A DNA stretch of 43,062 nt from IMG/VR virus record IMGVR_UViG_2663763326_000007. One strand, 5' to 3'. Below are positions 24,266 to 35,832 of the stretch, piece after piece (the first letter of the stretch is position 1; each line of letters begins with the position of its first letter). This DNA comes from a virus. Lineage: Duplodnaviria > Heunggongvirae > Uroviricota > Caudoviricetes. The notes below the pieces were generated by a model that was not told where the DNA came from, ran no database searches, and saw only the letters and a program-made list of their open reading frames with translations. Made by a program: the position numbers and the translations under genes.

Positions 24266-24499
24266 ATGGGTACGTTAGGCAACCAGCCGTGCAGAAGTCG
24301 TTATGAGTTCGATGATTTTAATTTAGCCAATCGAGCTGCGGCTCTTACTAAGTTAGCAAAAGAAACTGGTGTATCGGTGGATACCTTAATCAAACTTGAA
24401 ATTGCTATGCAACTGAATCGGCTCAACTCCATCCTTATCGAAAACGGTGACAAGATGGACGAGAATCTGGCAGGTATTGGCGAGATACTGCAGAAGTGA
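24266..24499 (+). CDS. Hypothetical small protein (77 aa), possibly helix-turn-helix
   Basis: GAGGAA before the ATG; ..AALTKLAKETGVSVDTLIKLEIA.. looks like a helix-turn-helix; followed by a hairpin. Confidence 0.4.
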   Translation: MGTLGNQPCRSRYEFDDFNLANRAAALTKLAKETGVSVDTLIKLEIAMQLNRLNSILIENGDKMDENLAGIGEILQK

Positions 24500-24535: not shown

Positions 24536-24897
24536 TATTAAGGGCGGTCTTCTTCACGTACACAGTCACCTGGTCGAATCGTTCACGCATACTGAGTACA
24601 AAAAATCTCAACGATAAGATCAGGTTAGACCTGTATTTTCCAGAAACATATAGACGCCTAAAAAAACACTAAACTCATGATTATCATGTATGTTTTTACT
24701 GGAAACATTGAACCATCCACAATACAGCGTAAAAAGCAAGCAATTCACAAGATTTTAAAGTGATTTATCTGGAAGACTTTACTACTAACAGTTAATATCG
24801 TACCAGAAGTGCAGAATTTGCACTTTTACAGGAATGTGGTACGGAACATGCTGTCTATATTTCAACCAATAATCGTAATGCAGTAACTGGAGGAGCT

Positions 24898-25386
24898 ATG
24901 GCTACCAACCCAAGAGAGCACGCCCGGCGAGTGCTGGACACGTTCTGGTGCGGGCGTGGTTTCCCTGTTGATCCAGCGAAAATTGCTCACGACATGGGAT
25001 TAGATGTTTTTATTACCGATCTTCCTGGGAAAGTTTCTGGCGCACTGATTAAACAAAAAGATCAAGATCCAGCGATCTTTCTAAACAGTGATGACAACAA
25101 AGTTCGTCAACGTTTTTCATGTGGGCATGAGTTGGGGCATTACATCGCCCGGCAAGCATCGCATAGCGATGAATATGAGTACGTTGATTTACGTGGCGAA
25201 ACCGCAAGCGCCGGAACGCATCCTGATGAAATTTTTGCAAACAAGTTCGCAGCAGAACTTCTGATGCCGGTAGATGAGGTCAGAAAACTGCACGCTGACG
25301 GTCAACCAAGTTATATAATGGCGCATTATTTTGGCGTATCTGACGATGCGATGACTTATCGTTTAAAGAACTTGAGGTTGGGGTAA
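24898..25386 (+). CDS. ImmA/IrrE-family zinc metallopeptidase (M78-like), stand-alone peptidase domain
   Basis: HEXXH motif in ..FSCGHELGHYI.. and a downstream Glu in ..NKFAAELLMP..; GGAGGAG ribosome-binding sequence. Confidence 0.7.
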   Translation: MATNPREHARRVLDTFWCGRGFPVDPAKIAHDMGLDVFITDLPGKVSGALIKQKDQDPAIFLNSDDNKVRQRFSCGHELGHYIARQASHSDEYEYVDLRGETASAGTHPDEIFANKFAAELLMPVDEVRKLHADGQPSYIMAHYFGVSDDAMTYRLKNLRLG

Positions 25387-25395
25387 CGCTTTAAA

Positions 25396-26001
25396 ATGCC
25401 ATCGGATGACGATTTTAACAGCCGTTTCAAACAGGAAGTAGCACGCAGACTGAAGGATTCCCTCAACCTACACCGTCAGTTAGCAGAAGAGGTTGAGCCG
25501 GAGGACGATGAAACTCCGGTTCAGTCTCCTGACGAAGCTTCACCTCAGCCAAAGGTTTCGCACGCCCCCAAAAAAACGGCTGTCCGTATTCGCGGAATAG
25601 CCAGAAAAAGAGCTGCCGAAGCTCGCAAAATGGCTGTAGCTGCGTCTAGCAAAAGAATTCCAACTGCTACACCCTCTCAACAAGTCACCCGTACTGAGAG
25701 TAAAATCTTGACCGAGTTCACATCTGTGAAACAGGTGAATTCACTTGATACCGAGCATGAGCGCAAACAACTCAACAACAAAGATTTTGAAGCAGAAATC
25801 GCTCTAAAAAAACGATACGGGAAATGGTTCCTGATTATCCTTGCTTTCCAACTTCTGATAATGAATGGTGTATTTATTGCCGACGGCGCAGGTAAGCTGG
25901 AATTTGAGGATTTAACACTACAGTTGTACATGGGCGGTACTTTGACAGAGGTATTCGGCCTCGTGCTGGTCGTGACAAAATACCTTTTTAAACGCAAGTA
26001 A
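25396..26001 (+). CDS. Membrane protein with charged, low-complexity N-terminal region and two C-terminal transmembrane helices
   Basis: Starts 10 bp after the peptidase stop; hydrophobic segments ..WFLIILAFQLLIMNGVFIA.. and ..GGTLTEVFGLVLVVTKYLF.. Confidence 0.55.
   Translation: MPSDDDFNSRFKQEVARRLKDSLNLHRQLAEEVEPEDDETPVQSPDEASPQPKVSHAPKKTAVRIRGIARKRAAEARKMAVAASSKRIPTATPSQQVTRTESKILTEFTSVKQVNSLDTEHERKQLNNKDFEAEIALKKRYGKWFLIILAFQLLIMNGVFIADGAGKLEFEDLTLQLYMGGTLTEVFGLVLVVTKYLFKRK
25930..26001 (+). repeat. 72-bp direct repeat, copy 1 (3' end of the membrane-protein gene)
   Basis: ATGGGCGGTACTTTGACAGAGGTATTCGG..CGCAAGTAA recurs at 29352..29423 with about 6 mismatches. Confidence 0.85.
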
Positions 26002-26463
26002 CTCTCTCGGTCCAACAGTCTTTCGAAGGCCCTGATCAAAGGGCCTTGATAAATTAGCAGTGCGTTGAAAACAGATAGTTATTCCCATCAGTTCCAACGT
26101 AATACACATCAAAAAAATCACCATTCTTTTGCTCTAACGTCAACACCTACCCTTAAAAAAATAATTCTCCAAGAATGAGAAAGTTATTGTGTGTATTAGA
26201 TAAGATATGAGCTGACACATCTATGGCGTGGAGCCAAATTTAATATGACAGTCCGCTCTGTGCCATAAGCGGACTGTCAATAAACAGATTCACTTGTAAA
26301 TCTTGAAGCTATACATATTTACTTTCAATGATAAATAAAAGAACTATCCAAAAATCACTGAGAGCATATTTTAACTAACCCTCCGCTACTATTAACATAA
26401 ATTTCACCCAACCATAATTAAATTGATACATATAGCAACTTACCTTGATACGAATCATCTGGG

Positions 26464-27162
26464 TTATATTTTTCCATATTTTTTTCCGTCAAATCGAATC
26501 ATGCCAGGATCAAGAAAATTAATTAAATCGATTAACGCGTGCTGTATTCTGATTAGCCTTTCTTTATAAATTCCGATATCTCTTGTCATATTTATCACTT
26601 CATTGTTTAAATCTAAAAAAAATGGCTCATTGATAAAGCAATTTTCCTTTGTGAAACTGCCGTAACCTATGCAATCAAATCCAGTATCTGTTGATATCAG
26701 CATCTTTTCTGCAATAGCTCTCTGCTCTCCTATGAAAAACATAAAATACTGACCAAAGACGTCTGTTTGGATTAATGAGTTAATATTGTTCTGTAATCTA
26801 ATAAACTCCCTCATTTTTTTATTTTTTTCTAGGCTAAGGTATTGAATGTCTATGCGGGCAGCTTCTGTCCATGCAAAAAACTGGGAAAAAAGAAAAACAG
26901 TATTGTTGATAACATAATCTTGTTGGCGCTTATTCCCATTATGATAAAACTCTTCAATGAACCCCAATTCTAATATATTATAAATACGGCTTTGTAAGTC
27001 TGAAGCTGAGCGAATTAACGGTTCAATATAGTACTGATGTTTTCTCCTTACATCCAGTGATTCATTGAGCTTGTTTATTCTATTCTGATTATAAGTAGAT
27101 ATAGCAATAGAGATTATAGCTATTGCACCACTAATAAAGCTTGAAATTAATGCCGTACCCAT
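26464..27162 (-). CDS. Low-GC protein with N-terminal transmembrane helix (232 aa), function unknown
   Basis: ATG at 27160..27162 with AAGGA 7 nt upstream; N-terminal ..LISSFISGAIAIISIAISTY..; Asn/Ile/Lys-rich, far more AT-rich than the flanking phage genes. Confidence 0.5.
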   Translation of the reverse strand: MGTALISSFISGAIAIISIAISTYNQNRINKLNESLDVRRKHQYYIEPLIRSASDLQSRIYNILELGFIEEFYHNGNKRQQDYVINNTVFLFSQFFAWTEAARIDIQYLSLEKNKKMREFIRLQNNINSLIQTDVFGQYFMFFIGEQRAIAEKMLISTDTGFDCIGYGSFTKENCFINEPFFLDLNNEVINMTRDIGIYKERLIRIQHALIDLINFLDPGMIRFDGKKYGKI

Positions 27163-28349: not shown

Positions 28350-29273
28350 ATGAGATTAAAATACTCAGTACTCTTACTCGCCATTGCCCTTACAGGCTGT
28401 GATAACAAAAAAGATGAGATCGGTTGTTCTTCGGAAATAACCCAGTCAGCTCTCATGGATTTATTAAAAAAATCTGCTTATGAAGGACTCTCTGAACAGG
28501 TCGATAAATACCCTGATGTCACTAATCAGACCAAACGAAGCACACTGGACAAGATCAAACTAGCCATCTCTGAGATCTCCACAACATCAAGTGACACGGG
28601 CAGCACAATGAAAACTTGTGAAGGGACCGTGACGATGACTCTATCTGCGAACGAGTACGTCCAGCTTTCAGATGCTTACAGAAAGAATTTTAATCGTAAT
28701 CTCGATAAGCAAATGGAAAGCCTGTTTTTGGAGAACAACGCAAACGCCTTTTCAAAACGTATCACCTACACCGTGCAGGCGACCGACGATCAGAAAAACG
28801 TTTTTGTAAAAACCTCTACTGATAATCCGATATCAGTGGGCGCCGCTTTACTGACATCGCTTTCCATTATCACCCCGATCGTTGAGCAGCAGAAAATCCA
28901 GCAGGCTAAGGATGCCCAACAGAGTCAAATTGAAGCGGAACAACAGGTGCAACTCAGGGCGCAAGAACAGGCTAAGTATGAGGCGGAGAAGCAAATAGAG
29001 AGACAGGCACAACTTCAGCCGCAAAAAGCTGACAACCTTGATCAGTCCCGAATGGCATTTGCGAATGCCGACTCTGATTTGAGTACCGTCTGGAGCAAGT
29101 TAACCCCGGCGAAGAAAAAAGATTTGCTGCCTTCTCAGCGTCAGTGGATCAAAACTAAGGATGCTATGTGCGGTAAAGTTTCAATGCAGGGAACAGATGC
29201 TGAAGTCAAGAAAATGGTCGACTGCCAGACGCAAATGACCCTTTCAAGAATCGCTTTCCTCAGAAACCAATAA
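28350..29273 (+). CDS. Lipoprotein with C-terminal DUF1311 (LprI-like) domain
   Basis: Signal peptide with LTGC lipobox; Gln-rich coiled linker; C-terminus ..LSTVWSKL..QRQWIKTKDAMCG..MVDCQTQMTLSRIAFL.. fits the remembered DUF1311 Cys/Trp pattern. Confidence 0.55.
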   Translation: MRLKYSVLLLAIALTGCDNKKDEIGCSSEITQSALMDLLKKSAYEGLSEQVDKYPDVTNQTKRSTLDKIKLAISEISTTSSDTGSTMKTCEGTVTMTLSANEYVQLSDAYRKNFNRNLDKQMESLFLENNANAFSKRITYTVQATDDQKNVFVKTSTDNPISVGAALLTSLSIITPIVEQQKIQQAKDAQQSQIEAEQQVQLRAQEQAKYEAEKQIERQAQLQPQKADNLDQSRMAFANADSDLSTVWSKLTPAKKKDLLPSQRQWIKTKDAMCGKVSMQGTDAEVKKMVDCQTQMTLSRIAFLRNQ

Positions 29274-29351
29274 CTGAAGTCTCCTTCAAGCTGGCGCCAG
29301 GTGTTAACCTGGTGCCAGCTTAGTCATCAAGTGCATATGTAACTGTTTTAT

Positions 29352-29423
29352 ATGGGCGGTACTTTGACAGAGGTATTCGGTCTCGTGCTGGTCGTGGTCA
29401 AATACCTTTTTAAGCGCAAATAG
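29352..29423 (+). repeat. 72-bp direct repeat, copy 2 (orphan gene-end remnant)
   Basis: Encodes MGGTLTEVFGLVLVVVKYLFKRK then a stop, with no upstream gene body; right boundary of the 3.35 kb insert. Confidence 0.85.
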
Positions 29424-29447: not shown

Positions 29448-30266
29448 TCAAAATGCTGAATTAGCAACGGATATAGCCGACTTTTTCCCCATTACCATCA
29501 ATTTATCCAGTGTCATACTTCGCAGATTGTCGCTGTGGATCACCAGATACCCTGCCCGCTCAGCGATCTCTTTGAAAGCGTCAAAGGTCATCAGATGTTC
29601 GCCTTTGGCAACATGGCGCATCCCGGTCACTTTTCCATTTTTGATAGTGGTGATAAAAGAAAAATCTGGAATGGTTGGGTGATTTTCATCGAGTAGCAGG
29701 CAGTGGATGTATTCAATCGCCTCTAACATTTGCGTCTGTGACAGTTGTTCTATGTGAGAGACGGCGAAGCGTTGATGAATCATGGTGTAGGCATCGGGAT
29801 ACATCATGCCTTTCTTGCCGACCAGTATATTAACGGCATCACGCAAGGGAGTACGGTCATCGGTAGTTGTACTCCGCCTCTCTGGACGCTGGCTAAAATA
29901 ACAATCTTCCAGCTTTTCGAAAACTTCCCAGGCCTGTTCTGTTTCCAGCATTTTGGCATGGCGAGCTGCGCCGCGTTCTGTCCAGAGAATGAGGGATCGG
30001 GTATGTTTAGCAACTGACTGACTATCTGTCAGTCTGTTTTTGAAGTCGCGTAATTCATTACCTTCCAGCTTAAAAAAATGCTTTCCTACGACAAATCTGG
30101 CGATGTTGCGCTTGAAGTTTTGCTGGATACCATTTACTTCCGTGCCATACAAACTGGCAAGCAATTCAGTAGTGATGACGGGAAGTTGGTTATGATGTAG
30201 CGGAGAAAGGGATTCCGCAGATATTTGGACTGTCATCGCAGTGGCCTCACTTAGTGTTTTTTTCAT
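29448..30266 (-). CDS. Phage antirepressor / regulatory protein (Ant, ORF6N/Rha-like N-terminal domain)
   Basis: N-terminal ..PVITTELLASLYGTEVNGIQQNFKRNIARFVVGKHFFKLEGNELRDFKN.. resembles the antirepressor N-domain; start set at ATG 30264..30266. Confidence 0.55.
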   Translation of the reverse strand: MKKTLSEATAMTVQISAESLSPLHHNQLPVITTELLASLYGTEVNGIQQNFKRNIARFVVGKHFFKLEGNELRDFKNRLTDSQSVAKHTRSLILWTERGAARHAKMLETEQAWEVFEKLEDCYFSQRPERRSTTTDDRTPLRDAVNILVGKKGMMYPDAYTMIHQRFAVSHIEQLSQTQMLEAIEYIHCLLLDENHPTIPDFSFITTIKNGKVTGMRHVAKGEHLMTFDAFKEIAERAGYLVIHSDNLRSMTLDKLMVMGKKSAISVANSAF

Positions 30267-30508
30267 CACCACCAGCGACGCCAATCATCTGGTGGTGAGC
30301 TGTGCAGGGTTGGCGTAACCGGCTAAGTGAACCCGGCGCTTCCACAGAAGCCCCCACACAGCCCACCATAATGCGAATGTGGCCGTGCCTAACACATAAA
30401 AAAACCGCTAACGCGGCTATGCGTCACTTAGATATCCGGGACGCCAATCCCGGCAACCGATTTTGCGGCTGCGCGGAAACTATAGCCCCGGACTTTTTCT
30501 AAGTCAAT

Positions 30509-34554: not shown

Positions 34555-35031
34555 TCATGCATGGTGGTCTTGCGCAGTGCGTATCACTGCTCCTCGCGTC
34601 GCTACCAGCGCCGCTATTGCTTCGTCAATTTCCTGAATAGTTAACTCTGGCGCGAAGTGGAGATGTACAGCGTTAATCGCTTCCACCCCTTCTTTTGCCG
34701 CCAGCGTTGCCAGCAAAACGGGATCGCCCGGCGACTCCAGACGTGCCCGCCGTTCTGCGGGTAGCACGGCTTTCATCACACTGGCCAGCACCTGAGTTTT
34801 TCGGCGCGCCGCCGTTGTCTCGCCACGTAACCAGCGAAAGATTTTCTGCCGATTGTTGTTGATGGCTCTCCAGTCCACGTTGCCGTCCGCGTCCTCAAAT
34901 TCATGTAGTCTCAACTCATCATTGCGTCCCTGACTGAACCAGGCCCGGCAGATTTCAATCGTGACGAGTTCCTGCCCTGCCCTTGCCGCCCAGGTCAAAA
35001 TCTCTTTTTGTAATTCCTCTTGGTTTTCCAT
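34555..35031 (-). CDS. YdaT-like protein (cII-position regulator)
   Basis: ..NNRQKIFRWLRGETTAARRK.. and ..VMKAVLPAERRARL.. parallel Rac prophage YdaT; directly downstream of the Cro-like gene. Confidence 0.6.
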   Translation of the reverse strand: MENQEELQKEILTWAARAGQELVTIEICRAWFSQGRNDELRLHEFEDADGNVDWRAINNNRQKIFRWLRGETTAARRKTQVLASVMKAVLPAERRARLESPGDPVLLATLAAKEGVEAINAVHLHFAPELTIQEIDEAIAALVATRGAVIRTAQDHHA

Positions 35032-35089: not shown

Positions 35090-35320
35090 TTAAGCTGCTT
35101 CCGTTTTAGGCAAGCTGTCATCTGGGTTTGGGTAAAGATCCGGTCTAAGATCATGAGGGGTCACGCGCCATTCAAGAGCTTCAGATGTGCGCAAAACCTC
35201 TTCACCGGGAACCCGTCCTTTGAACCAGAGGCTTACCGTTTGTGGTTTTTTCCCTAATCGCCGCCCTAACTCGGATTGACTCATTACGGAAAGAATTTTG
35301 TCTTGCAGTTGTTTATCCAT
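35090..35320 (-). CDS. Cro-like / YdaS-like helix-turn-helix regulator
   Basis: Start at ATG 35318..35320 (MDKQLQDKILSVMSQSELGRRLGKKPQTVSLWFKG..) with AAGGAG 5 nt upstream; divergent from the repressor gene. Confidence 0.6.
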   Translation of the reverse strand: MDKQLQDKILSVMSQSELGRRLGKKPQTVSLWFKGRVPGEEVLRTSEALEWRVTPHDLRPDLYPNPDDSLPKTEAA

Positions 35321-35356
35321 ATGGACTCCTTGTGTCCGCGTCATCATTACAAACAA

Positions 35357-35418
35357 TAACTGTAATTACAAATTATATTTGCAATGCTCCCTACAATTAA
35401 ACCTTGTATCCTTACGGT
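35357..35418. promoter_or_regulatory. Divergent promoter/operator region (OR-like)
   Basis: Inverted repeats ATTACA-N8-TGTAAT and TTACAA-N7-TTGCAA between the divergent genes; a similar TTACAA-N7-TTGTAA repeat lies just past the repressor gene near 35965..35985. Confidence 0.4.
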
Positions 35419-35832
35419 ATGAACACAAAAACGAAAAACATGGCTTTTGCTAGCCGACTACAACGGATTCTAAAAGACTTAGGCTGGTCTCAATCTGAGT
35501 TAGCTCGCCATATTGGGGTTACGGCTCAATCAGTTCAGGCATGGTGTAATGGGGTAACTCCAAGAAAAGATAAATTAGACAAGCTAGCAAAAGTGACCGG
35601 ATACCCTGTTCATTTTTTCTTCATGAATGAAGGGGAATATTTGGATGAATCCACACTACACCCGGGTAATTACAATCAAGAACTAACCCCGCAAGAACAG
35701 GCTCTACTGCAACTATTCAGAGGACTGCCTGAGAGCGAAAAAAATAAATTAATCAATGAGCTAAAAGAAAAAAGAGAGCACTTCGATCTACTGCTAAAAG
35801 AACTACTTGAAGCCAAAAACCAGACAAAATAG
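35419..35832 (+). CDS. CI-like repressor (XRE-family helix-turn-helix), no LexA-like S24 peptidase domain
   Basis: ..LGWSQSELARHIGVTAQSVQAWCNG.. is a classic XRE helix-turn-helix; start uncertain (no ribosome-binding sequence, possibly leaderless). Confidence 0.65.
   Translation: MNTKTKNMAFASRLQRILKDLGWSQSELARHIGVTAQSVQAWCNGVTPRKDKLDKLAKVTGYPVHFFFMNEGEYLDESTLHPGNYNQELTPQEQALLQLFRGLPESEKNKLINELKEKREHFDLLLKELLEAKNQTK

What the first reader, a model, noticed from the sequence alone, without database searches (positions are those of the whole stretch)
24898..26001. Two-gene operon: stand-alone ImmA/IrrE-type zinc peptidase plus a membrane protein (candidate toxin-antitoxin or abortive-infection module)
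The HEXXH peptidase gene is followed 10 bp later by a protein with a long charged N-terminal region and two C-terminal transmembrane helices. ImmA/IrrE-type peptidases recur in anti-phage modules (for example the peptidase-domain antitoxin of RosmerTA and the CapP regulator of CBASS) and as repressor proteases in mobile elements. No helix-turn-helix is fused here. The pair sits on the strand opposite the phage early operon, in a cargo position. Either a peptidase-gated membrane effector or a remote protease acting on the prophage repressor is plausible; neither can be settled from sequence.
Basis: partly seen in the sequence, partly recalled or inferred. Interest (0 to 1): 0.68.

Follow-up and report, generated by a model that had tools for sequence, protein, structure and literature searches.

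The report
Zinc peptidase antidote with membrane toxin
A prophage of pandemic E. coli ST131 carries a small, widely travelling two-gene cassette, a minimal ImmA/IrrE-type zinc peptidase plus a conserved two-helix membrane protein. Public transposon data show it behaves like an antidote-poison pair, a partnership not described before for this peptidase family.

Summary
24898-25386 encodes a 162-aa stand-alone M78 (ImmA/IrrE/CapP-type) zinc peptidase with intact catalytic residues. Nine nt later, 25396-26001 encodes a 201-aa protein with a cytoplasmic N-terminal helix, a disordered linker and two C-terminal transmembrane helices.

The pair is a strictly conserved, self-contained module. The membrane protein belongs to an unannotated family (no Pfam; 1622 50%-identity clusters). 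In 29 of 29 genomic loci from several phyla, and in a Gordonia phage, the peptidase gene sits immediately upstream on the same strand. No third gene recurs. Locations include prophage cargo spots, a Tn7-like element and isolated islets between housekeeping genes.

The decisive evidence is published but unremarked. In two independent TraDIS libraries of ST131 strains carrying this exact prophage, the peptidase gene (EC958_2158) scores as essential, although only at the threshold. The membrane gene (EC958_2159) tolerates insertions.

The best reading is a toxin-antitoxin-like module in which the peptidase neutralises its membrane partner. Proteolysis as the mechanism and a role in phage defence are inferred, not shown. 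It is not RosmerTA and not CapH/CapP. The idea of a remote repressor protease is disfavoured.

The parts
24770..24798 (+). Promoter-like element of the cassette: TGGAAG, 17 nt, TAATAT
   Evidence: Read from the sequence. The two hexamers and the 17-nt spacing are kept in the Salmonella (L014) and E. coli (L011) versions of the cassette although the surrounding genome differs. The generic promoter scan did not flag it. This is inferred, not shown.
24806..24826 (+). Short hairpin at the predicted 5' end of the transcript
   Evidence: 8-bp stem. The Salmonella version has a hairpin of different sequence at the same place. The energy is not significant against shuffles (z = -1.65), so this is weak.
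24889..24894 (+). Shine-Dalgarno GGAGGA of the peptidase gene
   Evidence: The stretch GGAGGAGCTATG is invariant in all five aligned Enterobacterales upstream regions.
24898..25386 (+). Stand-alone M78 (ImmA/IrrE/CapP-type) zinc metallopeptidase, 162 aa; the putative antidote
   Evidence: Pfam PF06114 7.7e-18; PADLOC capP 2.4e-25, covering only profile positions 3-151 of 242; AF2 pLDDT 90 and Foldseek CapP 7T5T TMq 0.73. It corresponds to EC958_2158, called essential in TraDIS.
25126..25140 (+). Codons for HELGH (H77 E78 H81), the zinc-binding and catalytic motif
   Evidence: H77, E78 and H81 are invariant in 30 homologues down to 34% identity.
25228..25230 (+). Codon for E111, the presumed third zinc ligand, at the start of the motif E-x-x-A-N-x-F-A-x-x-L-L-M-P
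   Evidence: E111, A114, N115, F117, A119, L121, L122, M123 and P124 are invariant. The assignment as a ligand is by analogy with IrrE/CapP (own knowledge).
25396..26001 (+). Membrane protein, 201 aa; the putative toxic effector. Member of an unannotated family (phrog_5346)
   Evidence: phrog_5346 at 5.3e-141 over its full length, function unknown. No Pfam, NCBIfam or PADLOC family. 1622 cluster representatives at E<=1e-3. It corresponds to EC958_2159, insertion-tolerant in TraDIS.
25405..25491 (+). Conserved cytoplasmic amphipathic N-terminal helix (aa 4-32)
   Evidence: AF2 helix 4-32 with pLDDT 72-89. L19, L23 and R27 are invariant in 43 Enterobacterales members. Hydrophobic moment 1.3-1.5.
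25492..25749 (+). Variable, predicted disordered linker (aa 33-118)
   Evidence: pLDDT about 50. The length upstream of the conserved core ranges from about 20 to about 175 residues across the family.
25750..25992 (+). Conserved core: juxtamembrane basic helix, TM1, short acidic loop, TM2 (aa 119-199)
   Evidence: Across proteobacterial and unclassified members, Q152 in TM1 and G181, T182, E185, V186, F187, G188, L197 and F198 in and after TM2 are invariant, and N157 in TM1 is nearly invariant. Flank charges of +2 (N side), -2 (loop) and +4 (C tail) indicate an N-in/C-in topology.
26027..26048 (+). 8-bp GC-rich hairpin after the stop codon (AAGGCCCT, 6 nt, AGGGCCTT), with no U-tract
   Evidence: Read from the sequence. 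Not called by the terminator scan. Its role as a terminator is uncertain.
29342..29422 (+). 81-nt relic of the 3' end of a second, diverged membrane-protein gene
   Evidence: 89% identical to 25920-26000. It encodes LFYMGGTLTEVFGLVLVVVKYLFKRK* and is preceded by unrelated sequence.

Best explanation
This is a self-contained, horizontally mobile two-gene module that behaves like a toxin-antitoxin pair. The downstream gene makes a small inner-membrane protein. It has a cytoplasmic N-terminal helix, a variable disordered linker and a highly conserved two-helix hairpin with buried polar residues (Gln, Asn, Thr, Glu). This protein is harmful when unchecked, most likely because it oligomerises and compromises the membrane.

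The upstream, translationally linked gene makes a minimal cytoplasmic M78 zinc peptidase that keeps the membrane protein harmless. The most likely mechanism is cleavage of the cytoplasmic part of its partner, because every characterised M78 peptidase (ImmA, IrrE, CapP) cleaves the product of the neighbouring gene.

Carried as prophage cargo and expressed from its own promoter, the module would stabilise its carrier. It would probably also abort infection by other phages whenever peptidase supply or activity falls.

Shown: the two-gene unit, its mobility, the intact active site, and the asymmetry in transposon tolerance.

Inferred: proteolysis of the partner, membrane damage, and anti-phage function.
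For: 1. Strict synteny. 29/29 loci found with the membrane-protein profile have the peptidase ORF immediately upstream on the same strand, with a gap of -23 to +15 nt (mostly -4 to +2). They come from Gamma- and Betaproteobacteria, Nitrospirota, Desulfobacteraceae and a Bacillota MAG. The same holds for divergent Enterobacterales, Pectobacterium and Pseudoalteromonas versions, for a distant metagenomic member and for Gordonia phage Polly gp29/gp30.

2. No third partner. Among 117 flanking ORFs from 23 loci, no Pfam family occurs more than twice. Flanks include lon-ppiD and opp, rpoD, and alkaline phosphatase and GH43. The module therefore moves alone, as TA modules do.

3. Active enzyme. H77, E78, H81, E111 and the ANxFAxxLLMP motif are invariant. 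The model is confident.

4. Experimental data, first library. EC958 carries the identical proteins. In the EC958 TraDIS library (502,068 insertion sites, one per 9.92 bp), EC958_2158 (COG2856/DUF955) is one of 24 strain-specific essential genes. The others include R-M methylases and prophage repressors. EC958_2159 is among the non-essential genes.

5. Experimental data, second library. A bias-corrected re-analysis that adds an independent ST131 library gives essentiality scores where <=0 means essential. The peptidase scores -0.08 and -0.07. The membrane gene scores 2.72 and 3.71. That is about 7-fold and 14-fold fewer insertions in the peptidase gene. The same paper notes that variably present essential genes are typically antitoxins and phage repressors.

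6. Gene order and topology. The order and the strong Shine-Dalgarno on the first gene fit an antitoxin-first operon. The N-in topology puts the conserved helix and linker within reach of a cytoplasmic peptidase.
Against: No toxicity, cleavage or phage assay exists for this family.

The peptidase scores sit at the essentiality threshold, not far below it, so some insertions are tolerated. Tn5 insertions can be polar or can drive downstream expression. The lethality could therefore reflect overexpression of the membrane gene rather than loss of the peptidase as such.

No protease antitoxin acting on a membrane toxin has been described, so the mechanism has no precedent.

Known defence genes are adjacent in only about 5-6 of 23 loci, and one of those hits (BrxL) is really Lon.

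No natural knock-outs could be found to corroborate the model.
Confidence: 0.6

Rival explanations
1. The pair is a non-toxic accessory function, for example a superinfection-exclusion or injection-blocking membrane protein that the peptidase processes or turns over. The TraDIS signal would then be an artefact of polarity, read-through or a local insertion cold spot.
For: Small prophage membrane proteins expressed in lysogens often act as exclusion factors (own knowledge). The peptidase scores are only at threshold. The neighbouring gene EC958_2160 gives inconsistent calls between the two libraries (-0.60 against 1.73), which shows that local noise exists.
Against: Two independent libraries give nearly the same value for the peptidase, with the adjacent membrane gene 7-14-fold more permissive, after G+C and position correction. 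The peptidase gene is 47% G+C, like the window as a whole. Many copies sit in genomes with no phage nearby.
Confidence: 0.15
2. The peptidase is needed to keep this particular prophage quiet, for example by degrading an antirepressor or a lytic protein. Its loss would then kill through prophage induction rather than through the membrane partner.
For: The prophage repressor (35404-35832) is a short XRE-type HTH protein without an S24 autocleavage domain, so non-LexA-type control is expected. An ORF6N-domain protein lies nearby. The repressor EC958_2173 is also essential.
Against: The peptidase is always paired with the membrane protein. It occurs in a Tn7-like element and between housekeeping genes with no phage present. 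It sits at different positions in different prophages.
Confidence: 0.08
3. Activation by cleavage, gasdermin-like: a trigger-activated peptidase removes an inhibitory N-terminal part and unleashes the membrane hairpin as an abortive-infection effector.
For: Characterised M78 peptidases are signal-activated and cleave the neighbouring gene's product. The conserved N-terminal helix plus a variable linker would suit an inhibitory pro-domain.
Against: Losing an activator should be harmless, yet the peptidase gene is the insertion-intolerant one. The peptidase also lacks the GAF sensor domain of CapP and IrrE.
Confidence: 0.08
4. Either the peptidase is the toxin or effector (Lit-like, cleaving a host target) and the membrane protein is its inhibitor or sensor; or the peptidase is a remote ImmA-type inducer that cleaves the prophage repressor.
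For: COG2856 proteins were once predicted to be toxins, and one database entry names a homologue 'toxin'. The repressor has the size and type of known M78 substrates.
Against: Both versions predict that the peptidase gene tolerates insertions. The first also predicts that the membrane gene does not. The data show the opposite. No HTH gene travels with the cassette.
Confidence: 0.04

Closest known systems
ImmA/ImmR (ICEBs1, phage phi105), IrrE(PprI)/DdrO (Deinococcus), CapP/CapH (CBASS regulators)
   Same: The peptidase family and fold are the same (Pfam PF06114; Foldseek CapP 7T5T TMq 0.73, IrrE 3DTE). The catalytic motif is the same. So is the genetic logic of a peptidase encoded next to the protein it acts on.
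   Different: The neighbouring gene encodes a two-TM membrane protein, not an XRE helix-turn-helix repressor. There is no GAF-like C-terminal domain: the protein is 162 aa against 240-290, and the capP profile is covered only over positions 3-151 of 242. The known pairs are dispensable regulators, whereas this peptidase gene is insertion-intolerant.
RosmerTA (RmrT/RmrA), the spr1629-type repressor/antitoxins and PD-lambda-2
   Same: These are conflict modules on mobile elements in which the protein carrying an M78 domain is the antitoxin-side component. PADLOC RmrA profiles match at 5.8e-12 and weaker. An example sits at the equivalent prophage position in E. coli phage Tritos.
   Different: RmrA, spr1629 and PD-lambda-2B are proteins of about 360-400 aa with an HTH fused to the peptidase. 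Only their peptidase part aligns (profile positions about 145-294). NCBIfam spr1629 scores 25 bits against a cut-off of 335. Gene order is reversed, with their toxin upstream. The membrane protein matches no RmrT or other PADLOC model.
Toxin-antitoxin systems with a small membrane toxin and an enzymatic antitoxin (for example GhoT/GhoS type V; type VII enzyme antitoxins), from own knowledge
   Same: A two-gene mobile module with a small hydrophobic two-TM toxin, where the antidote is an enzyme rather than a simple binding protein. The antidote gene is the one scoring as essential.
   Different: There is no sequence relationship. The proposed neutralisation by a dedicated zinc peptidase acting on the toxin protein has no described precedent.
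Bacterial gasdermin plus adjacent protease; Lit protease of prophage e14 (own knowledge)
   Same: A protease genetically coupled to cell-killing outcomes in prophage or defence contexts.
   Different: In those systems the protease triggers death. Here the genetics indicate that it prevents death. There is no gasdermin or U49 homology.

Membership tests
Peptidase_M78 / ImmA-IrrE / COG2856 metallopeptidases | Profile match above the curated threshold over the whole domain | tested here: met
   PF06114 at 64.9 bits against a cut-off of 22, covering profile positions 3-123 of 123.
Peptidase_M78 / ImmA-IrrE / COG2856 metallopeptidases | HEXXH plus a downstream Glu ligand and the ANxFAxxLLxP motif | tested here: met
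   H77, E78, H81, E111 and A114-P124 are invariant in 30 homologues.
Peptidase_M78 / ImmA-IrrE / COG2856 metallopeptidases | The fold | tested here: met
   AF2 pLDDT 90 and pTM 0.87. Foldseek CapP 7T5T at E=9e-7 and IrrE/PprI at E<=4e-4.
CapH/CapP, ImmR/ImmA, DdrO/IrrE regulator pairs | An adjacent XRE-type HTH repressor that is the substrate | tested here: not met
   The adjacent gene encodes a two-TM protein with no HTH. No recurrent HTH family appears among 117 flanking ORFs.
CapH/CapP, ImmR/ImmA, DdrO/IrrE regulator pairs | A C-terminal GAF-like sensor domain (CapP, IrrE) | tested here: not met
   The protein is 162 aa. The capP profile is matched only over positions 3-151 of 242. Target-normalised TM-score is 0.39-0.45.
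CapH/CapP, ImmR/ImmA, DdrO/IrrE regulator pairs | Activation by DNA damage or ssDNA, and de-repression of a target operon | not testable with these tools
   Needs biochemistry and reporter assays.
RosmerTA (RmrT/RmrA) | RmrA is an N-terminal HTH fused to an M78 domain (about 360-400 aa) | tested here: not met
   Only the peptidase part of the RmrA profiles aligns, and there is no HTH. NCBIfam spr1629 family scores 25.4 bits against a cut-off of 335.
RosmerTA (RmrT/RmrA) | A cognate RmrT toxin encoded upstream | tested here: not met
   The partner is downstream and matches no PADLOC model. The only hit is JetC at E=0.051, which is noise.
Toxin-antitoxin module (generic) | A compact two-gene operon that moves as a unit between replicons and taxa | tested here: met
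   29/29 synteny. Heterogeneous flanks. Presence in prophages, a Tn7-like element and a phage remnant.
Toxin-antitoxin module (generic) | The antidote gene cannot be inactivated while the toxin gene can | tested here: met
   From published TraDIS data. EC958_2158 is essential and EC958_2159 is not. Scores are -0.08/-0.07 against 2.72/3.71 in two libraries. Caveat: the scores are at threshold and polarity is not excluded.
Toxin-antitoxin module (generic) | The toxin alone arrests growth and co-expressed antitoxin rescues it | not testable with these tools
   Needs expression assays.
Anti-phage defence system (PADLOC/DefenseFinder catalogue) | A match of the whole system to a catalogued system | tested here: not met
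   Only domain-level hits for the peptidase (capP, RmrA, PDC-M69B) and none for the partner.
Anti-phage defence system (PADLOC/DefenseFinder catalogue) | Protection against phage infection | not testable with these tools
   Indirect only: cargo positions in prophages, and known defence genes next to about 5 of 23 loci.
phrog_5346 (membrane partner) | A full-length profile match | tested here: met
   E=5.3e-141 over positions 1-201 of 201. The family has no known function.

The most novel reading that the evidence does not exclude
This is a new type of toxin-antitoxin / abortive-infection system, widespread in bacteria and their phages (at least 1600 50%-identity clusters). A dedicated, sensor-less M78 zinc peptidase continuously neutralises a conserved two-TM membrane toxin by cleaving its cytoplasmic N-terminal region. 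Infection by another phage, or loss of the element, lets the toxin accumulate and depolarise the cell. It would be the first M78 peptidase whose cognate substrate is a membrane effector rather than a DNA-binding repressor, and the first protease-type antitoxin.
Probability: 0.35. Interest if true: 0.8.

Novelty: new variant of a known kind. Interest (0 to 1): 0.66.

Why it matters
M78 (ImmA/IrrE/CapP) peptidases are currently understood as switches that cleave helix-turn-helix repressors. This cassette shows a large, conserved branch of the family wired to a membrane protein instead, and the genetics point to an antidote-poison relationship.

If confirmed, it adds a new neutralisation principle to toxin-antitoxin biology: proteolysis of a membrane toxin. 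It also assigns a function to an unannotated protein family found from Enterobacterales to actinobacteriophages.

It would explain why a prophage gene of unknown function scores as essential in the pandemic ST131 lineage. The cassette is present in 449 of 5426 complete E. coli genomes. That bears on prophage stability and on resistance to therapeutic phages.

The hypothesis is directly testable with a handful of plasmids.

Tried and rejected
1. LF82 prophage Tritos. It lists an 'ImmA/IrrE + hypothetical' moron pair expressed in lysogens. On inspection it is a 381-aa XRE-ImmA fusion with an upstream 204-aa gene, Rosmer-like, and not this cassette. I therefore did not use it as expression evidence.

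2. Fold search of the membrane-protein model against the PDB found nothing meaningful, with best E=2.5. Pfam scans of 22 family members gave no consistent family. tblastn of the membrane protein against 50,697 phage records gave no hit, although PHROGs holds the family.

3. A peptidase-membrane protein complex model was not possible.

4. Natural knock-outs. The IS1 insertions in four ST131 genomes lie downstream of both genes. The 'truncated' peptidases P0125 and P0168 come from assemblies with homopolymer indels, that is, sequencing errors. None is informative.

5. The 5'-UTR hairpin is not significant against shuffles.

6. The 77-aa upstream ORF (24266-24499) looks HTH-like by eye. It gives only a sub-threshold MerR hit at E=0.13 and does not travel with the cassette elsewhere, so it is not part of the module.

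7. The P2/P4 hotspot papers and the E. coli functional-selection paper do not describe this pair. Searches for the accessions and locus tags found no main-text mention.

8. The 'BrxL' neighbour hit is the housekeeping Lon protease.
Full report
**What is there**

The first runs 24898-25386 on the + strand and is 162 aa. The second runs 25396-26001 on the + strand and is 201 aa. Nine nucleotides lie between them.

The first is a complete, stand-alone Peptidase_M78 domain: Pfam PF06114 at E=7.7e-18, covering the whole profile. It carries HELGH at residues 77-81.

In an alignment of 30 homologues reaching down to 34% identity, H77, E78, H81, E111 and the motif ANxFAxxLLMP are invariant. The enzyme is therefore under selection to stay active.

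An AlphaFold model built on 51 sequences is confident (pLDDT 90, pTM 0.87). Its best matches among solved structures are CapP (7T5T, query TM-score 0.73), IrrE/PprI, and the COG2856 domain of a mycobacterial regulator. Those targets are 240-330 residues long. The PADLOC capP profile is matched only over positions 3-151 of 242. This protein is thus the bare peptidase domain, without the GAF-like sensor domain of CapP and IrrE and without any helix-turn-helix.

The second protein has no Pfam, NCBIfam or PADLOC family. It matches one PHROG of unknown function over its full length (phrog_5346, E=5e-141).

Hydropathy analysis and AlphaFold agree on its layout:
- an amphipathic helix at residues 4-32;
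- a low-confidence, Pro/Ser/Thr/Ala-rich charged stretch at 33-118;
- a long helix at 119-164 comprising a basic juxtamembrane part and TM1;
- a ten-residue acidic loop;
- TM2 at 174-199, ending in KYLFKRK.

The charge distribution is +2 before TM1, -2 in the loop and +4 at the C-terminus. This indicates that both ends are cytoplasmic, so the long N-terminal part is accessible to a cytoplasmic enzyme.

**Where it sits**

The window is a prophage of E. coli integrated at the tRNA Leu-Cys-Gly cluster next to pgsA-uvrC. It has lambdoid-style regulation and P2-like tail genes.

Its genes for replication, DUF1367/DUF1364, the Q antiterminator, lysis and morphogenesis are all on the - strand. The cassette lies on the + strand in a low-G+C cargo stretch between the replication genes and the DUF1367/Q block.

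The cassette DNA is present in 449 of 5426 complete E. coli genomes. In 419 of them it is at least 99% identical, and most of the listed strains are ST131.

**The pair is a conserved unit**

A first search with the membrane protein found 48 clusters, all from Enterobacterales. They share a conserved N-terminal helix, a linker of very variable length and a nearly invariant C-terminal core.

Looking up divergent members in Klebsiella, E. coli and Salmonella showed a 162-aa M78 gene 9-11 nt upstream in every case. There, however, the pair sits at the extreme edge of a prophage beside the integrase. In Salmonella it sits beside an integrase remnant next to pipA/pipB2/sopB.

Peptidase homologues at about 55% identity from other genomes are each followed, 0-7 nt later, by a 111-125-aa protein with the same core motif:
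- Pectobacterium;
- a Pseudoalteromonas Tn7-like element next to tufA;
- a Salmonella prophage, between tail-fibre genes and lom.

The shared core motif is D..AD..LKK.YA.WFI.ILIGQL..MN..F...G...L.F...LNLYMGGTLAEVFGVVLVITKYLF.

A profile search of 1.84 billion cluster representatives found 1622 members at E<=1e-3 and 340 at E<=1e-10. All the listed hits are small (49-236 aa), with the domain at or near the C-terminus.

A scan of one genome per species returned 29 loci from Gamma- and Betaproteobacteria, Nitrospirota, Desulfobacteraceae and a Bacillota MAG. In 29 of 29, an ORF matching the peptidase profile (E of 1e-43 to 1e-80) lies immediately upstream on the same strand, overlapping by up to 23 nt or separated by up to 15 nt (mostly -4 to +2). 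A distant metagenomic member shows the same arrangement.

So does Gordonia phage Polly. Its gp29 'metalloprotease' is 44% identical to the window protein. Its gp30 'membrane protein' matches the family profile at E=1e-6 in the small local search.

More distant stand-alone M78 genes are each followed by a small protein that is unrelated in sequence but has the same layout, a charged N-terminus and two transmembrane helices. These occur in:
- a P2 variant and a Salmonella P2-like phage, after the replication gene and close to one end of the linear record;
- Burkholderia phage Carl1, next to cosL;
- a Helicobacter prophage.

**No third component, and TA-like mobility**

I pooled 117 ORFs flanking 23 non-redundant loci and scanned them against Pfam. 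No family occurs more than twice.

Individual loci show the cassette wedged between housekeeping genes:
- lon-ppiD and an opp-type ABC transporter;
- next to rpoD;
- alkaline phosphatase and a GH43 glycosidase.

A minority of loci have known defence genes as neighbours: MADS mad3/mad8 in two, and DRT UG29, MzaA and DolB in one each. One 'BrxL' hit is in fact Lon. The module therefore travels alone and lands anywhere, including cargo spots of mobile elements. This is how toxin-antitoxin modules behave.

**Experimental evidence already in the literature**

Strain EC958 (ST131) carries this prophage with identical proteins, WP_000224749.1 and WP_001138663.1.

Counting genes from the peptidase to the XRE repressor and to pgsA reproduces the old locus tags exactly:
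- EC958_2158: the peptidase, annotated COG2856/DUF955 in the paper's table;
- EC958_2159: the membrane protein;
- EC958_2160: the 232-aa neighbour;
- EC958_2173: the XRE repressor;
- EC958_2179: by gene count, pgsA. The tag appears in the essential-gene table and is about 100% conserved across the 50 genomes.

The first dataset is the EC958 TraDIS study (PMC3789825). It has 502,068 insertion sites, one per 9.92 bp, and calls a gene essential at an insertion index of 0.0158 or less. EC958_2158 is one of only 24 essential genes that have no K-12 homologue. That list otherwise contains restriction-modification methylases, prophage repressors, a reverse transcriptase and O-antigen genes. EC958_2159 appears in the table of non-essential genes analysed for serum fitness.

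The second dataset is a later re-analysis that corrects for G+C and position and adds an independent ST131 library, NCTC 13441 (PMC11481867, Table S2). Its score is log2 of the insertion index over the cut-off, and values of 0 or less mean essential:

| Gene | EC958 | NCTC 13441 |
|---|---|---|
| Peptidase (EC958_2158) | -0.08 | -0.07 |
| Membrane gene (EC958_2159) | 2.72 | 3.71 |

Ordinary non-essential genes in the rows I read score about 2-4. The peptidase gene thus has roughly 7-fold and 14-fold fewer insertions than its downstream partner.

The same paper states that variably present essential genes are typically antitoxins and phage repressors. Neither paper comments on this gene in its main text.

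**Interpretation**

The asymmetry has four consequences.
- It is the genetic signature of an antidote (the peptidase) and a poison (the membrane protein).
- It contradicts models in which the peptidase is the toxin.
- It contradicts models in which the peptidase is a trigger that activates the membrane protein.
- It contradicts the model of an ImmA-type inducer of the prophage. In all three of those cases, losing the peptidase would be harmless.

The repressor-protease idea did have one point in its favour. The prophage repressor at 35404-35832 is a short XRE-type protein without an S24 autocleavage domain, the kind of substrate M78 enzymes cleave. However, the cassette's presence in phage-free contexts argues against this as its function.

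How the peptidase neutralises its partner is inferred. In every studied case (ImmA/ImmR, IrrE/DdrO, CapP/CapH) the M78 enzyme cleaves the product of the neighbouring gene, within a helix needed for oligomerisation. Here the neighbouring product offers a conserved cytoplasmic helix and a linker. I therefore favour proteolysis of that region.

The invariant or nearly invariant polar residues inside the two TM helices (Q152, N157, T182, E185) suggest an oligomeric, ion-conducting or membrane-perturbing assembly. That too is inference.

An anti-phage, abortive-infection role is plausible from the cargo positions in prophages and some defence-gene neighbours, but it is untested.

**Caveats**

The TraDIS scores sit at the threshold rather than far below it. 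Tn5 insertions can be polar or can drive downstream transcription, so lethality might reflect overexpression of the membrane gene. The neighbouring gene EC958_2160 gives discordant calls in the two libraries. I found no informative natural knock-outs.

**Comparison with known systems**

The peptidase is a bona fide member of the M78/ImmA-IrrE family.

The module is not a CapH/CapP-, ImmR/ImmA- or DdrO/IrrE-type regulator pair, because it has no HTH partner and no GAF domain.

It is not RosmerTA, for four reasons:
- RmrA, spr1629 and PD-lambda-2B are HTH-peptidase fusions of 360-400 aa.
- Only the peptidase part of those proteins aligns with the window protein.
- The NCBIfam score is 25 bits against a cut-off of 335.
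- The partner matches no RmrT model.

It works most like a toxin-antitoxin system with a small membrane toxin and an enzymatic antidote. Neutralisation by a dedicated zinc peptidase would be new. I rate it a new variant of a known kind.

**Side observations**

- Two E. coli type I-E CRISPR arrays contain 32-nt spacers identical to the peptidase gene (24961-24992) and the membrane gene (25952-25983), flanked by ATG and AAG PAMs.
- An 81-nt relic of a second membrane-protein gene lies at 29342-29422. This suggests cargo exchange by recombination at the conserved 3' end of the gene.

Noticed in passing
window 24961-24992 and 25952-25983; L060:1501-1532; L061:1501-1532: Two E. coli type I-E CRISPR arrays (next to queE) each hold a 32-nt spacer identical to the cassette. 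One matches the peptidase gene and one the membrane gene. The protospacers are flanked by CAT and CTT on the + strand, which are ATG and AAG PAMs on the other strand. E. coli has therefore acquired spacers from elements carrying this cassette.
   Followed up: yes
window 29342-29422: An 81-nt relic, 89% identical to 25920-26000, encodes the last 26 codons (LFYMGGTLTEVFGLVLVVVKYLFKRK*) of a second, diverged membrane-protein gene. It lies between the LprI-like gene and the ORF6N gene and is preceded by unrelated sequence. This suggests that the 3.4-kb stretch between the two copies was swapped in by recombination at this conserved gene end.
   Followed up: partly
window 26464-27162 (- strand): This 232-aa protein with an N-terminal TM segment weakly matches the PADLOC model RTasTM, a membrane protein associated with defence reverse transcriptases (E=1.8e-5). 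It corresponds to EC958_2160, a 'putative lysogenic protein' 80% identical to one of phage P2-EC58. It was called essential in the EC958 TraDIS library (score -0.60) but not in NCTC 13441 (1.73).
   Followed up: partly
window 35404-35832 (+), 35090-35356 (-), 34555-35031 (-): The immunity region is of the Rac type. It has a short XRE HTH repressor without an S24 autocleavage domain, a YdaS-like Cro and a YdaT-like protein. How this prophage is induced is not evident. The repressor (EC958_2173) is essential in TraDIS, as expected.
   Followed up: partly
window 29448-30284 (- strand): An ORF6N-domain protein (Pfam 1e-21) also matches the PADLOC candidate defence family PDC-S05 (1.3e-9). It is a possible antirepressor-like or defence-linked cargo gene.
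   Followed up: no
window 28350-29273 (+ strand): A 307-aa predicted lipoprotein with a C-terminal LprI (lysozyme inhibitor) domain (Pfam 4e-7) and a Gln/Glu-rich coiled middle part. It is another moron in the same cargo stretch.
   Followed up: no
window 24266-24499 (+ strand): A 77-aa ORF annotated in RefSeq as hypothetical (WP_000536919.1), with a stretch that looks helix-turn-helix-like (LAKETGVSVDTLIKLE). It gives only a sub-threshold MerR hit (E=0.13). It does not accompany the cassette in other genomes.
   Followed up: partly
window 24770-24826: A promoter-like TGGAAG-17 nt-TAATAT, followed by a small hairpin, travels with the cassette into Salmonella and other E. coli contexts. The hairpin sequence differs there but a hairpin persists. 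It is not statistically significant.
   Followed up: partly
L026 (phage Tritos OV696610) 36334-38090: At the equivalent position of another E. coli prophage, between the replication genes and Q, sits a different M78 module: a 204-aa gene followed by a 381-aa XRE-ImmA fusion (Rosmer-like). The original authors reported it as expressed in the lysogen.
   Followed up: partly
L059 (E. coli S9) 2865-3562: In a few ST131 genomes an IS1 element has inserted about 60 nt downstream of the membrane gene, leaving both cassette genes intact.
   Followed up: yes
L021, L056, L057, L058: More distant stand-alone M78 genes are each followed by a non-homologous small protein with a charged N-terminus and two TM helices. 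They occur in a P2 variant and a Salmonella P2-like phage (after the replication gene, close to one end of the linear record), in Burkholderia phage Carl1 (next to cosL) and in a Helicobacter prophage. This suggests a broader 'M78 plus two-TM' theme.
   Followed up: partly
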